Shown here piece by piece: positions 55,401-61,400 of a stretch of DNA of 64,000 nucleotides (the stretch's first letter is position 1; the number at the start of each line of letters is the position of its first letter). Made by a program: the position numbers. The stretch comes from Perna viridis (Eukaryota), in the NCBI GenBank assembly GCA_037379345.1, contig CM074514.1, positions 37,634,001 to 37,698,000 of the forward strand, written 5' to 3'.

Positions 55401-58400
55401 AGAATTATATGGATCAATTCCCTAGTATATGGTGAAAAATGCAGATTATCATCAAGTATCAACTGGTCTAATGTTCCAAGGACATAGGCAAACACAGCAA
55501 TGAACATGAAATATCTAAAATAACTACACAGAAACAAAAGTAAATAAGCGACTAGGGCTCCGACTGGGAGCAACGGTAGGGTTAAGTCATGAATATACCC
55601 CTGCAATCATGGTCTATTGACTTTGAAATTTAACATTACATCATTTCAAATTTTGAATAACAGGGACAGGTGAGAAAATGGTGATACACCAGAGAAGCAA
55701 GCAAGTAAAGTAGAAATGTCAATAGTGGTATACCTATTTCTACTGAGAAAAAATCTGCCTGTCAGATGATCTCTTGTACAAATTCACGGAAGTCTTCAAA
55801 GTCGCTAATCGTCAAATATTCACTGTCAATGATTTTGGCTTATTTTCAGCATCCGAAATGGTAATAATGTGATATGCTCTAAAATCGGGTGACTTCCGCG
55901 AAAATCTTGGTTCCCTTGATATTATTGCGTACTCTTTCGTAACCGTTATGACCCGAATGTTTTCAATCATGCGGAACAAGATTAAACCAACTAGCAATTG
56001 CTATATATAGATATTGGTGTCTTGATAATATATATGACCTTTATATAATCAATTGTAACGAACGCCTGTGTTTGAATCGGAAACTGGGTTATATTAAATA
56101 ATGCTAACCGATCATTTTATCTTTTAATGTTAACTTTCCTTTCTAATACAAGCAAAAAACACGCATAGACATGTGTATGATATGTTTTGAAAAAGATACG
56201 CTGTAGCGATCTTTGGGTCGCTTATGATATTGACCAGGGAACAGTTGAGGAACCAGATTAAACAGCTGGCAATGAATATTCATAGATAAAAGGGCGTGCT
56301 AATGTATATGACCTATATAGTCTTGTAACGACCCTCAGTGCCTGAATCGAAACTGGGTAATTTTCAAAGCTAACCGATTATTTCATATAAATTTCCCGTT
56401 CTCATACAAGCAAGAAACACAGGTATATTATACTTAAGAGGTACATTTTTATTTCGTATGAAGCTAGAACTATGACGCTGTGGCGGTAAACACGGCGATG
56501 ATCTGCAGCATTACGTGGCGTATACTTACATATTTATGCAAATCATATGCAAATATTAAGTACTGAAATTACGAGTGCAGGAAATATTATCGACTTGAAA
56601 ACAAAGCACTAGCAATAAAATCCCACAAAAAACTGGGATAAACATCAGGTGCTCCTAAAGGGTAAGCATGTCCTGCTCCTTTATATTGCAAGTAAGTATA
56701 ACCCGATAATAGTCTAGCAGCAATTATGCAGATCCGCTTAACCAATGAATTAAATGAGATTAATACTTGTATGATTATTTGAAAATTCTACTACATCTGA
56801 TTGACTCTACTTTAGGATTGACAACTAGTAACGAATATTTTTCGTTTTAAAATCAACAGATTTTTCAATGCATAGGTCTCATTTTAGAAAGTCGGCGTAA
56901 TTTGACCGATTGAATGGACTCTCCTGTTTAATCAAAATAAATGGGGATCAAAAGTTTATCTTTAATATCAGATTAGGTTATAGCCCAGACGTCTTATCAA
57001 GGAGATTATAAGTAGAGCCATTTCTAATTTTCTGGCAGGATTTATTATAAGGATTACTTTCTTTAGCTCATTTTAACACTAGACTTAAAATCGGGGGATC
57101 TGATTTACTAATACAGACTCGTGCTAAGTAAGCCTAAAAATACTGCTCTTTGTGCATCCAAGACCGTGTTCTTATACTGAATAGTTGAACGGGAATAAAT
57201 ACATTGAACAAAAGAGAACTAACTTTAAGTAAATATTATTTTACAGCTTTGTGTCTTCACTATATAAAGCAAGAGAAAGTCCAAAAATAGCATATAATAA
57301 TCTGCAGCTCAACTTGTTTTAAATTCCAAAACAGAATTTAGTGCACCCAAGTTCAAAAGATTAATTACATATTACTTACTGTAAACTGTGAATAACATAA
57401 ACACCACTGGATATTTGAATATTGGTAGCTATAAGACCAACATGTTTTATGTGTGCGTATTCGAATTTATTAAAACAGTGACATTCAACGGATTCAGCAT
57501 TGGTCAACGTGACAGAATGACTACTTAATGGCTGCTAGTTTAGCACTGAGAAAGTTCAAATTACTGCATTATTACTTTGTGTGAGCTGTTGAATTCTAAT
57601 TCTGTTCCAAGTTGTCCAACAATGTCTTCGATTGTAACATATGAACTGTTACACACAGAAGAAAGTACAAGTGATGAAATAAACGAACTCGTTCGGACAG
57701 TAGAAGAAAAAACTTTATTGCAACAACGGCGGTCGATGGCCGTTCGCGTAAAACTACAAGAACTTAGCGATAGGCGAAATAAACTGGACGCACAAAGACT
57801 CGACAGACTTGCAGATTATGGCGTTAATGTAGATTTAAAAGGCATCAAAGATGAGGTCCAAAAATCAATTCAAGAGGAGAAGGAAAGATATCTCCGTGAA
57901 AGACAATGCAAGGAAATGGACGAGGAAACAAATGCTGAAGATATACGTCCCGCAAGTCCTGAAATTGAAATACAGAACACACCCGCAATAGGTGTCACAA
58001 AAAATCCAGACGACCAGAACAGACTGGGTAAAGTGATTGGAAATTTACAAAATAACCAGAAACAATTTGACAAAGAGAATAAAACACCAAGCTCAAAACA
58101 AAGACAGTCATTCGTAACATCAACTCAAAACAGGACTATGAACCAGACGAATGAAGCTCACCTGGAGAGACGTAGCTCACTAACTCCTGGTGGCCCTTGG
58201 GGGTCCCAGAAGCCTCCTGAAAGACGAAGTTCGCTTACTCCGAGTGGACCACAGAAAAATCAAATTAATTCAGGTAAGCAAAATTTACTCAAATCTGCAG
58301 GAGCTCCTACACAAATGTCTTCAGATAGGCGAAACTCGCTGACTTCCGGTGGAGCGATTGTGAAAAATTTTGAAAGGCGAAATTCTCTCATCAATAATGG

Positions 58401-61400
58401 CACATTAAGGAATAATGTAGAGAGGCGAAACTCACTTACTACTGGAGGAAATTTGCCAGACAACATGCAACCATGGATGAGTTATTCCTTTACATCTGGC
58501 TTAACTCCTAAACATAGCAATTATTCAGAAAGACGCGATTCAATTAATTCAATTGAGGCGAATACAAGCAGCAACCGTTTAGGGAGGCGAAACTCTCTAA
58601 CTTTTAGTGGAACTACCGAAAATAGAACGATTTTAGAGAGACGAAAGTCAATTACTTCAACCAGTCCCCTGGTCAACAGAATACTTTCTGAAAGACGTAA
58701 TTCACTAACAATTGGAGACATTCCTACTAGCAACATGCCTTTAATGAGGCGCAATTCGCTCACTTCCGGTGGAAATATGATGGCAAAAATGATGGCACCA
58801 GAGAGGAGGAACTCTTTAAACACGACAAAAGGAGGTAACAGAAAGTTATCCGTGAAATCATCAAAAGTCAAGAGACGGAGTTCTTTCGGGGGTTCATTTC
58901 AAAGTGAAAAATCAAAAATATTGAATTCACTAACTGCTCCGTTAGAAAATAGGGAGTTCAAGAAAGCTTCGAAGACAATTTCAAATGCTTTAAAATTCGT
59001 TTAGGATTTTATTTGGCGTGTATCTGGAGGTTGCCATACACACACCAGTGTAACTGTGGCGGATCGATTCAGAGGTTTTGCAAAAGGGACCGTATTGCTT
59101 ACTTTTGGTTTTTGATCTTCCTTAATTTTTCCAAAGGCGATATTCCCCTAAAGATCCAGTGACGGAGTCGGGGTTTCCTGAGGTTGAAACCTCCCTGATC
59201 GGAAAATTTCATTTAAGTCGCTAAAATTTTTTGTAAAAATGAATAAATATTAGCCTATACCCTCTTTCCAAAATCTCTAGGTCATAACCTATAGCCGAAA
59301 TCAACTGGTTTATTCCTTAAAACTATGTGCTACTAACACTATTTAATGTTGACTAATTGATCAACTTTGAGTTTTTGCAACGATAATTTGAAGTCTTTCT
59401 TCTCATCCAAGCCAAAGTTATCATTCTTTGCATATGCAACTAAAAACAACGTGCTATAAGAATCAAGGTCCCTCTCGGCACTTCTCGTTACACATAGACC
59501 GAGTAGCTCCGATTGTCGCTTAGCATTCAATTTATAAATTGAATTTTATACATATTTTAGGGTCACCTAACTCTTTTCAGTTTTAAATTTAAATATTCCA
59601 CTGTGAACATTCACAATGTACATAGTGAACCAAAAGTTAAGATTTCTCTTTAGTTTGACCAACCATATGAATAAATACGAAAGTAAAACTTAATGCACTG
59701 GAAATTAATTAGGAAACACATATTTTAATTAATAATCCAGACCTACAACTTATATACTACTGCTTCACAAATTTGTGTTATTTCGTTTTACCAAATGTCA
59801 GTCACGTCGGATTCAACTGAGGATCTTTACAAGACCGGCGAAAATGCGGACGACGAAGAATTAAAAAATCTTGTTAAATCAGTGGAGGAAAGGACAGTTC
59901 TGAGATTAAAAAGATCGGCGAAATTTGAAGAAAAACTGAAGGAACTTACCAAAAGAAGTTACAAACTGTATCAGTTGAGGTTAGTACGACTTTCAAAGAA
60001 AAGAGATCATCGCAAATTTAGACGGACAGAGAATGGCGTTTGGAAAGTACCGGAAGTTGATAAAGTTCAAGGAAATTGTTGCTATGACAATGCGCTGGAC
60101 GTGGCGCAGAATCTAAACGATCAGGAAAGACTTAACGAGAAACTTAAACAGCTGCAGACTTTCTAAGAGACGACAAAGGAAAACACAAAGTGAAGATGGG
60201 GGAGCTGGGAATTGTTTTGGGTTCTGTAAAAAAGACATTAACCCGAAAATATAGTACATATGATAATGCTCCATCATGATATCGTCACGCTATCACGTCT
60301 ACGACTTGCTGTCATGATTACGACACGAGTTTTAGTAGCTTTAAATGGAAATACAAAATAGGTACATTAGTACATTTTGTACCTTAGAACCAAATTGTTA
60401 TGAAATATGAAACTTTTGTTTTTAGATTCTGCCATAACGATTGTTTCTTTCTTTCTTTCTTTTTGTTTGTTACGTTATGTTTTGCTTGAATGTCTTGTTT
60501 TGCTTCTAGTACTAGCATTTGAGTTGTTGTCACTTCTATATGTGCAAGCTGTATTGCTTTTCTTTTAGTTTTGTTACATTTTTCGTATAGCTAGATTGAA
60601 TAGAAAAATAGAAAAATATTTCCAAGAATCATTTTTTATAAAAGTGTATAACTAAGTTCTTGAACTTAAATGCAGCTTATTATTTACCGGTAAATGCACG
60701 TCTGGTGTGCGAAGGAGATAGCGAAATTTTAAACATTCTCTTGTGGCATAAAATAAACTATGGTATTCAAGGACAATCGCGAAGTTATTTGTACAACATT
60801 GACAACTTGCTTTAAAAAAACACCAAAAATTTTTTAAAAGATACAGTTTTGACTGGCGCGGATTCTTTGGGACGGAACCAGCATACACCCCCTAAAACAA
60901 GATAAAAAACATTATTAAAGCTTGATTTTTCACAAATTCTACTCCCAAAAATTTATCTGGTTTCGCTTCGCTCCACTTTTTATTCTTTTTTCTGTTCCCT
61001 AACCTAAAATCCTGGATCCATCCTTTCGTGTTATCGACACGAACGCGCATTTGCATTCTGGGTTTACCCGTTTAGAGAGCGGCTCGTGTTTATAGACGGG
61101 ATGTGATATTTCTGCGCGTCAGGAAATGTTGGTCATTAATGTTTTTTCGTGTCGTTATTTGACTTTTTAGTTTATTTTGGTATGTATACACTACTTGAAG
61201 ACCTTTTGGTTAGTATTTTCTATTTTTATAAAGGTTATTGTATGATGGAGCATTTGTTGCGTTTCAATATATCTGTTCCCTTTCCTAATGTTTAAGGTTT
61301 AGAAGGCATGCCATGTAGATGAGATTCATTTTTTTCGTGTTAGCCACGTCTTGTATATTATTACTTGTAATATTCTAACTTAGTGATATTTGGGCTAGGG

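What the first reader, a model, noticed from the sequence alone, without database searches (positions are those of the whole stretch)
58165..58890. Periodic RRxS-hydrophobic array with 16-19 aa spacing and two switched-off units
Seen: 7x RRNSL, 2x RRSSL, RRDSI, RRKSI and RRSSF, plus RKLSV. Unit lengths run 18, 18+17, 16, 16, 18+18, 18, 18, 18, 18, 19. Two in-register units have lost the motif (KQNLL, MSYSF). Linkers and codons have diverged strongly while the motif is retained, which points to selection on the motif. Established: R-R-x-S-hydrophobic is the PKA consensus and is also read by PKG and Aurora. Inference: a multisite phosphorylation rheostat or charge switch on a basic disordered tail, possibly a polyvalent 14-3-3 dock or a kinase-substrate sink.
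Basis: partly seen in the sequence, partly recalled or inferred. Interest (0 to 1): 0.7.

Follow-up and report, generated by a model that had tools for sequence, protein, structure and literature searches.

The report
Tandem array of kinase-site motifs
An unannotatable 460-residue animal protein carries twelve evenly spaced copies of a near-ideal cAMP/cGMP-kinase target motif on a basic, floppy tail, kept by selection while everything between them has drifted, so it is probably a multi-site phosphorylation switch of unknown partner.

Summary
One open frame (window 57622-59004, + strand, 460 aa) holds 12 R-R-x-S-[LIF] sites plus RKLSV, spaced 16-19 aa, with two in-register decayed units. Shuffled sequences give 0.12 sites on average, at most 3. 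Between units the synonymous sites are saturated in motif and linker alike (pS 0.78). Amino-acid change is 0.11-0.16 in the motif and 0.59 in the linker, so the motif is held by selection on the protein. The conserved word is longer than a kinase consensus: E-R-R-N-S-L-T-x-G-G. The array is basic (net +27) and modelled as disordered. It follows an acidic two-helix N-terminal domain that a neighbouring paralog shares. Pfam, PDB sequences, Foldseek and the ESM Atlas gave no family. The best reading is a multisite PKA/PKG-type substrate tail that acts as a graded charge switch. This is inferred, not shown. The canonical 14-3-3 consensus is met at only 1 of 12 sites. Interest is moderate.

The parts
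57622..59004 (+). Coding frame of the protein (460 codons plus stop). The ATG at 57622 is the first Met after an in-frame stop at 57547-57549.
   Evidence: The chance of no stop in 484 codons is 5e-17 to 3e-15. The N-terminal third scores as coding only in this frame. The paralog aligns from Met1-Ser2.
57631..57942 (+). Acidic N-terminal domain of two long helices (aa 4-65 and 72-107; aa 1-110 have net charge -6 and pI 4.95)
   Evidence: AlphaFold2 gave mean pLDDT 80.7 for aa 1-110 and block means of 69-90 for aa 21-100 in the whole-protein model. The domain is 42% identical over 65 aa to the paralog.
58069..58089 (+). DKENKTP (aa 150-156), a KEN-box-like word in the linker between the helical domain and the array
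   Evidence: One search found one KEN, with D at -1 and P at +3. The form of the motif is taken from passages of PMC3690534. Function was not tested.
58165..58905 (+). Array of 15 units (aa 182-428): 13 in-register units of 16-19 aa (11 intact, 2 decayed) and two short terminal units of 11-12 aa. The first Arg of the 12 RRxS[LIF] sites lies at 58168, 58222, 58327, 58375, 58423, 58531, 58585, 58639, 58693, 58747, 58804 and 58873. RKLSV starts at 58840.
   Evidence: Net charge is +27. pLDDT block means are 34-52.
58273..58323 (+). Decayed unit 1 (GKQNLLKSAG...). Both Arg and the Ser are lost.
   Evidence: In register. AAG/CAA/TTA each lie one base from the AGG/CGA/TCA codons used in intact units.
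58474..58527 (+). Decayed unit 2 (WMSYSFTSGL...). Both Arg are lost; the Ser, the +2 Thr, the +3 Ser and the +4 Gly are kept.
58951..58998 (+). Short C-terminal helix (aa 444-459), basic and partly hydrophobic
   Evidence: AlphaFold2 helix 444-459, pLDDT block means 63-69. Weak evidence.
59795..60166 (+). Paralogous frame (123 aa) sharing only the N-terminal helix. No array follows it.
   Evidence: BLASTP gave 42% identity over 65 aa, E 2e-8. Smith-Waterman score was 101 against a maximum of 80 in 2000 shuffles and a maximum of 37 among the other 772 frames of the window. No motif array lies in 60166-62300.
57261..57267 (+). TATA-like word 355 bases upstream of the ATG
   Evidence: Pattern match only; not evidence of function.
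59242..59247 (+). AATAAA 238 bases after the stop codon, a possible polyadenylation signal
   Evidence: Pattern match only.

Best explanation
This is a protein-coding gene for a modular protein. It has an acidic two-helix N-terminal domain, which probably serves targeting or assembly. A short linker follows, then a 250-residue basic and disordered tail built by tandem duplication of an 18-codon unit. Each unit keeps the word E-R-R-N-S-L-T-x-G-G. The Ser in each word is most likely phosphorylated by a basophilic AGC kinase of the PKA/PKG type. Twelve to thirteen phosphates would cancel the tail's net charge of about +27. This would weaken binding to an acidic partner stepwise (a rheostat), or switch the word on or off as a ligand for a reader still unknown. 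The array, its selection, its charge and its predicted disorder are shown. The kinase, the phosphorylation, the partner and the graded behaviour are inferred.
For: There are 12 RRxS[LIF] sites against 0.12 expected and a maximum of 3 in 20,000 shuffles. Among the 11 intact in-register units, motif codons -4..+2 have pS 0.776 and pN 0.155. Linker codons +6..+11 have pS 0.784 and pN 0.594 (10 of the 11 units; the 12-aa last one was left out). Identity by codon position is 0.855/0.836/0.366 in the motif and 0.448/0.389/0.270 in the linker. Units 1 and 2 differ at 8 of 30 bases, 7 of them synonymous (read). Tandem Repeats Finder sees no 54-base repeat, so the units are old. The first Arg is always AGR, the second is CGN in 10 of 11 units, and the Ser is always TCN, which points to common descent of the units. 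The array has net charge +27 and pI 11.8 and pLDDT block means of 34-52. RRNS[L/I] equals the core of GRTGRRNSI, used as a PKA substrate (PMC7304965 passages) and as a PKG substrate (PMC7369637 passages). The unit at aa 319-326 reads RLGRRNSL. The human CFTR construct sequence holds ERRNSILTE (PMC3365120). The CFTR R domain is a roughly 200-aa stretch, largely unstructured in the cryo-EM maps, that is switched by multisite PKA/PKG phosphorylation (PMC7756540 passages).
Against: There is no evidence of transcription, translation or phosphorylation. No orthologue could be examined, so conservation of the serines across species is unknown. The conserved positions -4 (E in 8 of 11), +2 (T in 8 of 11) and +5 (G in 7 of 11) are outside what I recall PKA reading, yet each exceeds all or nearly all of 20,000 null columns. 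Something besides, or instead of, a kinase active site therefore constrains the word. An acidic residue at -4 is not a recalled PKA preference. RRxS-hydrophobic also fits Aurora, PAK, RSK and others (recalled). In 6 of 11 units a hydrophobic residue at -5 also fits the CaMK/PKD pattern. The coding log-odds of the array part alone does not separate the sense frame (+0.011) from one antisense frame (+0.174), and the reference was only 876 codons.
Confidence: 0.5

Rival explanations
1. The sites are read by a mitotic or meiotic kinase (Aurora type), and the protein is a cell-cycle-regulated factor destroyed through the APC/C. Each RRNSL also contains R-x-x-L, so phosphorylation could gate degron-like words.
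For: One DKENKTP word (aa 150-156) has D at -1 and P at +3. Passages of PMC3690534 describe those flanks as conserved positions of KEN boxes. RxxL lies inside 9 of the 12 sites, and RxxLxxxxN in 2 of them (aa 269 and 377). That Aurora reads [RK][RK]x[ST]-hydrophobic is recalled, not tested.
Against: RxxL follows automatically from RRxSL. Only 2 of the 12 sites have N/D/E at D-box position 9, and none passes the pattern with I/L/V/M at position 7. A single KEN word noticed after the fact is weak evidence. The paralog has no KEN (read).
Confidence: 0.13
2. The phosphorylated words are docking sites for 14-3-3 dimers (a polyvalent dock), as PKA-made RRxS sites are in yeast Rim4.
For: PKA sites overlap the 14-3-3 consensus (PMC5456370 passage). 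Rim4 has four RRxS/T sites bound by 14-3-3 after PKA phosphorylation (PMC12217248 passages). Two of the four printed Rim4 sites lack P at +2.
Against: P or G at +2, part of the consensus quoted in PMC5456370, is present at 1 of 12 sites (the last, RRSSFG). The strict pattern R-x-x-[ST]-x-P has 0 matches.
Confidence: 0.12
3. A CaMK- or PKD-type kinase (hydrophobic at -5, Arg at -3) rather than PKA/PKG is the writer. The rest of the mechanism is as in the best explanation.
For: L, F or V stands at -5 in 6 of 11 intact units, and that column is somewhat more uniform than the null (P 0.024). The consensus itself is recalled.
Against: 5 of 11 units have P or S at -5. The invariant second Arg at -2 is the PKA/PKG hallmark (recalled) and is not needed by CaMK/PKD.
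Confidence: 0.1
4. The word is a ligand motif that works without phosphorylation (for example an Arg-based binding or sorting motif), and the Ser is structural.
For: Conservation extends from -4 to +5, the size of a typical short linear motif and more than a kinase needs.
Against: The invariant part is exactly RR-x-S-hydrophobic. In the decayed unit at aa 286-290 both Arg were lost while the Ser, the +2 Thr and the +4 Gly were kept, which does not discriminate between the readings. No known non-phospho motif tested matched: RVxF 0, LxxIxE 0, PxIxIT 0.
Confidence: 0.1
5. A secreted prohormone whose RR pairs are dibasic cleavage sites that release about 12 related peptides.
For: Regularly spaced RR pairs flank 14-17-aa stretches with a conserved start (NSLT...).
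Against: There is no signal peptide. The first 25 aa are acidic or polar (mean hydropathy -0.32), and the most hydrophobic 19-aa stretch of the whole protein scores -0.005. The residue before RR is E in 8 of 11 units, never the Gly needed for amidation. About 180 aa of helical and linker sequence precede the array.
Confidence: 0.02
6. Not a functional gene: a chance frame kept open by a stop-free DNA repeat, or a decaying pseudogene.
For: No homologue, transcript or family was found. Antisense frames are also open across parts of the array (73 and 125 aa). The array's codon score is not decisive.
Against: The 181 non-repeat codons, with the 24 codons upstream of the ATG, are open too (P 6.7e-7 for 205 codons) and score as coding in this frame only. 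All unit length changes are whole codons. pN/pS is 0.14-0.20 in the motif and 0.76 in the linker at equal pS. Variation at the third codon position fits only the + frame.
Confidence: 0.03

Closest known systems
CFTR regulatory (R) domain
   Same: A roughly 200-aa stretch, largely unstructured in the cryo-EM maps, whose multiple serines are phosphorylated by PKA and PKG to switch function (PMC7756540 passages). Human CFTR holds ERRNSILTE (PMC3365120), nearly the word repeated here.
   Different: The R domain is an insert in an ABC transporter. As recalled, its sites are irregularly spaced and differ from one another. Here the sites form a regular tandem array on a soluble protein with a helical head. 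The PDB sequence searches found no similarity to any chain beyond one chance-level hit to an unrelated enzyme.
PKI pseudosubstrate and the PKS peptide (GRTGRRNSI)
   Same: The core RRN[S/A][I/L] is shared. The unit at aa 319-326 (RLGRRNSL) also shares the Arg at -6 and the Gly at -4 with GRTGRRNSI, which is used as a PKA and PKG substrate.
   Different: It is a single site in a small inhibitor or a synthetic peptide. Only 1 of the 11 intact units has Arg at -6. That PKI carries RRNAI is recalled, not seen in a call.
Hec1/NDC80 N-terminal tail
   Same: A basic disordered tail in which multiple phosphorylations add up as a rheostat of binding to an acidic polymer, the microtubule (abstract of PMC4436829 in the listing).
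   Different: That tail is short, with irregular Aurora sites and no repeat units (recalled), and it belongs to a conserved kinetochore protein. No partner is known here.
KNL1 MELT repeat arrays
   Same: A disordered scaffold with an array of repeat units, each carrying a phospho-motif that docks a reader. The arrays differ strikingly between species (abstract of PMC4558858 in the listing).
   Different: The motif, kinase (Mps1) and reader (BUB1-BUB3) are all different. KNL1 units are longer (recalled).
Yeast Rim4 14-3-3 binding sites
   Same: RRxS/T sites phosphorylated by PKA that bind 14-3-3 and control assembly of the protein (PMC12217248 passages).
   Different: There are four dissimilar sites, not a tandem array. 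Rim4 has RNA-recognition domains, which this protein lacks (Pfam gave 0 hits).

Membership tests
PKA/PKG-type substrate site (R-R-x-S/T-hydrophobic) | Arg at -3 and -2, Ser or Thr at 0, hydrophobic residue at +1 | tested here: met
   12 sites in 460 aa. RKLSV is a weaker 13th.
PKA/PKG-type substrate site (R-R-x-S/T-hydrophobic) | Site lies in an accessible, unstructured stretch | tested here: inconclusive
   Single-sequence AlphaFold2 gave pLDDT block means of 34-52 over aa 181-430, with two low-confidence helices drawn inside the array. Low pLDDT without an alignment is only suggestive.
PKA/PKG-type substrate site (R-R-x-S/T-hydrophobic) | The serine is actually phosphorylated by the kinase | not testable with these tools
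   Needs a kinase assay or phosphoproteomics. No animal kinase sequence could be supplied to complex prediction.
14-3-3 binding motif (R/K)X2-3(pS/pT)X(P/G) | Pro or Gly at +2 | tested here: not met
   1 of 12 sites (RRSSFG, aa 418-423). The +2 residue is T at 8 sites, N at 2 and I at 1. The consensus is as quoted in PMC5456370.
APC/C KEN box | K-E-N with D or N at -1 and P at +3, in a disordered stretch | tested here: met
   DKENKTP at aa 150-156. The motif form is from PMC3690534. A pattern match only; degradation was not tested.
APC/C D box | R-x-x-L followed by a hydrophobic residue at position 7 and N/D/E at position 9 | tested here: not met
   Two of the 12 array sites have N at position 9, and none passes the pattern with I/L/V/M at position 7. 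The only full match, RVKLQELSD, lies inside the N-terminal helix.
Neuropeptide or prohormone precursor | N-terminal signal peptide | tested here: not met
   The first 25 aa have mean hydropathy -0.32, and the highest 19-aa window in the protein scores -0.005.
Neuropeptide or prohormone precursor | Gly before the dibasic site (amidation), as in many repeated-peptide precursors | tested here: not met
   The residue before RR is E in 8, D in 1, G in 1 and M in 1 of the 11 intact units.
Any curated protein family (Pfam-A) or solved structure | Significant sequence or fold match | tested here: not met
   Pfam gave 0 families at E up to 10. PDB sequences gave one chance-level hit at E 1.9 and none for a single unit. 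Foldseek against the PDB with the N-terminal model gave 0 matches. The ESM Atlas gave no usable hit twice.

The most novel reading that the evidence does not exclude
The decapeptide E-R-R-N-S-L-T-x-G-G is a new phospho-switchable short linear motif with a dedicated reader of its own. It is displayed twelve-fold on a helical stalk, so the protein counts cyclic-nucleotide kinase activity and converts it into multivalent binding, release or condensation. It would found an undescribed protein family with a truncated paralog next door.
Probability: 0.15. Interest if true: 0.7.

Novelty: new variant of a known kind. Interest (0 to 1): 0.4.

Why it matters
Multisite phosphorylation of disordered tails is a known way to make graded or switch-like responses. 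The known examples (CFTR R domain, NDC80 tail, Rim4) have irregular, dissimilar sites. A natural protein with twelve near-identical, evenly spaced, near-optimal PKA/PKG sites would be a clean model for how site number and spacing set a response. Unit number can be compared between species, and two natural dead units are built in. The conserved flanks (Glu at -4, Thr at +2, Gly at +5, with Gly at +4 weaker) point to an unidentified second reader. If orthologues do not keep the serines, or the gene is not expressed, it is only a curiosity.

Tried and rejected
- **Family and fold searches.** Pfam, PDB sequence search with the whole protein and with one unit, the ESM Atlas with the whole protein and with aa 1-182, and Foldseek against the PDB with the N-terminal model gave no family. 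The only hit was a chance-level one at E 1.9.
- **Dimer test.** Complex prediction on two copies of aa 1-110, to ask whether the helical head dimerises, returned no verdict (score 0.00, mark 0.32). It says nothing either way.
- **tblastn.** tblastn of the protein against the window found only itself and missed the paralog. A Smith-Waterman scan of all 774 frames of 35 aa or more then found the paralog and nothing else.
- **blastn.** blastn between the two gene regions found no DNA similarity beyond chance (best E 0.08), so the duplication is old.
- **Literature.** The search for RRNSL returned 16 papers and, by title, none about such an array (listing only). Two searches were run for PKA-site repeat proteins. 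The first gave Rim4 as the only useful analogue. The second was too loose and gave nothing relevant.
- **Rejected readings.**
  - Prohormone: no signal peptide.
  - DNA-level repeat element: third-position variation fits a coding frame, and Tandem Repeats Finder sees no 54-base repeat.
  - Coding on the minus strand: those frames are broken into 73 and 125 aa and read SEFRLS, the mirror of the motif.
- **Not run.** The genome-contig collection holds only bacteria and archaea.

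
Full report
**What is there.** Window 57550-59004 (+) is one open frame of 484 codons. The first ATG is at 57622 and gives a 460-aa protein. The pattern RR.S[LIVFM] occurs 12 times, all between aa 183 and 422, and RKLSV stands at aa 407. The spacings are 18, 35, 16, 16, 36, 18, 18, 18, 18, 19, then 12 and 11. The two double gaps each hold an in-register decayed unit, KQNLL at aa 219 and MSYSF at aa 286. In the five core codons, KQNLL lies three single-base changes from codons used in intact units. 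MSYSF lies five changes away, one of them synonymous.

**Is it more than chance?** Composition-preserving shuffles (20,000) gave a mean of 0.12 sites and never more than 3. In the six-frame translation of the whole window only 3 other strict matches exist.

**Is it a gene?** The window has no N and 30-37% G+C. I do not take it for human.
- A frame this long without a stop has a chance of 5e-17 to 3e-15.
- A stop-free DNA repeat could keep a frame open, but the 181 non-repeat codons and the 24 codons upstream of the ATG are open too (6.7e-7 for 205 codons).
- The non-repeat codons score as coding only in this frame. The mean log-odds is +0.27 per codon against -0.04 to -0.35 in the other five frames. 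The reference was only 876 codons from four neighbouring frames.
- For the array part this score does not discriminate: +0.011 in frame against +0.174 in one antisense frame.
- The minus strand is open across parts of the array (73 and 125 aa) and reads SEFRLS, the mirror image of the motif. This is a by-product.
- A TATA-like word lies at 57261 and an AATAAA at 59242. These are pattern matches only.
- There is no hydrophobic stretch anywhere, so there is no signal peptide or membrane span.

**Selection.** Tandem Repeats Finder sees no 54-base repeat, only a 12-base microduplication at 58773-58797, so the units are old. I compared the 11 intact in-register units codon by codon with the Nei-Gojobori method. 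The two decayed units and the two short terminal units at aa 406-428 were left out.

| Codons compared | pS | pN |
|---|---|---|
| Motif, -4 to +2 | 0.776 | 0.155 |
| Core, -3 to +1 | 0.791 | 0.111 |
| Linker, +6 to +11 (10 units; the 12-aa last unit left out) | 0.784 | 0.594 |

Identity by codon position is 0.855/0.836/0.366 in the motif and 0.448/0.389/0.270 in the linker. Units 1 and 2 differ at 8 of 30 bases, 7 of them synonymous (read). The motif is therefore kept by purifying selection on the protein. It is not kept by recent duplication, gene conversion or a constraint on the DNA. The first Arg is always AGR, the second is CGN in 10 of 11 units, and the Ser is always TCN. This fits common descent of the units rather than convergence.

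**The word is longer than RRxS-hydrophobic.** Four columns were not part of the pattern used to pick the units, and each is more uniform than all or nearly all of 20,000 null columns drawn from linker residues. They are Glu at -4 (8 of 11), Asn at -1 (7 of 11), Thr at +2 (8 of 11) and Gly at +5 (7 of 11). Gly at +4 (5 of 11) has P 0.007. Linker columns sit at the null. The unit is E-R-R-N-S-L-T-x-G-G plus 6-9 free residues. I cannot explain the Thr and the Gly-Gly from any kinase consensus I know.

**Architecture.**
- AlphaFold2 on the single sequence draws two long helices, aa 17-65 and 72-104, with pLDDT block means of 69-90 over aa 21-100. The array has block means of 34-52. A short C-terminal helix at aa 444-459 has block means of 63-69.
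- Aa 1-110 modelled with the paralog gave helices 4-65 and 72-107 with mean pLDDT 80.7.
- The head is acidic (net -6, pI 4.95). The array is strongly basic (29 R, 13 K, 4 D, 11 E; net +27, pI 11.8).
- Between them lies DKENKTP at aa 150-156.

**Surroundings.**
- A second frame at 59795-60166 (+, 123 aa) is 42% identical over the first 65 aa. Its Smith-Waterman score is 101, against at most 80 in 2000 shuffles and at most 37 in the other 772 frames. No array follows it and no DNA similarity remains.
They give an ankyrin plus SOCS-box frame at 11874-13007 (-), an LLGL match at 36027-36392 (+), and a neurotransmitter-gated channel membrane region at 62216-62974 (-).
- These neighbours show an animal genome, but they do not bear on function.

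**Identity.** No family was found.
- Pfam gave 0 hits at E up to 10.
- PDB sequences gave one chance hit at E 1.9 and none for a single unit.
- Foldseek against the PDB gave 0 matches.
- The ESM Atlas gave no usable hit twice.
The open genome collection holds only bacteria and archaea and was not used.
- Whether orthologues exist and keep the serines therefore stayed unchecked.

**How it most likely works.**
- R-R-x-S-hydrophobic is the PKA consensus. PMC5456370 gives (R/K)RX(S/T).
- The word RRNS[L/I] is the core of GRTGRRNSI. That peptide is used as a PKA substrate (PMC7304965) and as a PKG substrate (PMC7369637). One unit reads RLGRRNSL.
- Human CFTR holds ERRNSILTE (PMC3365120). It lies in or near the R domain, a largely unstructured stretch switched by multisite PKA/PKG phosphorylation (PMC7756540).
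- I therefore read the tail as a multisite PKA/PKG-type substrate. Twelve to thirteen phosphates would roughly cancel +27 charges. This is the logic shown for the NDC80 tail rheostat (abstract of PMC4436829).
- These steps are inference. Confidence is about 0.5 for phosphorylation by a PKA/PKG-type kinase as the reason the motif is kept, and lower for the charge-rheostat output.

**Rivals.**
- **14-3-3 docking** is weakened. P or G at +2 is present at 1 of 12 sites. However, two of the four printed Rim4 sites also lack P at +2 and are bound.
- **An Aurora and cell-cycle reading** gains a little from DKENKTP. The RxxL inside each site is automatic, and the D-box flanks are not met.
- **CaMK/PKD-type kinases** fit 6 of 11 units at -5.
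- **A non-phospho ligand motif** cannot be excluded.
- **A prohormone and a non-gene** are disfavoured. The first lacks a signal peptide and has Glu rather than Gly before RR. The second conflicts with the selection pattern.

**Verdict.** The array is real and selected. It is new in form: a regular tandem array of a PKA-type decapeptide on a helical-headed, family-less protein. It belongs to a known kind, the multisite phospho-regulated disordered tail. Function is inferred only.

Noticed in passing
window 59795-60166 (+): A 123-aa paralogous frame that shares only the N-terminal helix of the array protein. No array follows it, and the DNA similarity has been erased. It could be a truncated copy or a short gene.
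   Followed up: partly
window 40179-40379 (+), with 36027-36392 and 42028-42387: Exon-like frames of an Lgl-type gene (Pfam LLGL hit). One holds RRKSLKKSLRESFRRLRKRRS, which I recall as the hinge that aPKC phosphorylates in Lgl. It is one of the 3 strict RRxS-hydrophobic matches outside the array frame, and the only one in a frame tied to a known gene.
   Followed up: partly
window 11874-13007 (-): A single open frame of 377 aa with ankyrin repeats and a C-terminal SOCS box (ASB-like).
   Followed up: partly
window 62216-62974 (-): An exon-like frame with the transmembrane region of a neurotransmitter-gated (Cys-loop) ion channel.
   Followed up: partly
window 58773-58797 (+): A 12-base microduplication (AAAAATGATGGC, 2.1 copies) that encodes MMAKMMA inside the only 19-aa unit. 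It is a recent in-frame length change in a linker.
   Followed up: no
window 58260-58481 and 58521-58898 (-): Antisense frames of 73 and 125 aa that read SEFRLS repeatedly. This is the reverse complement of the motif, a by-product of the repeat and not a second gene.
   Followed up: yes
window 58165-58835 (+), motif codons: The first Arg is always AGA or AGG and the second is CGN in 10 of 11 units, although AGR and CGR are one synonymous step apart. This may be retained ancestry or a constraint I cannot name.
   Followed up: no
window 16641-17048 (-): A 135-aa frame that looks, from memory, like the tail of a retrotransposon reverse transcriptase. Pfam gave no hit.
   Followed up: partly
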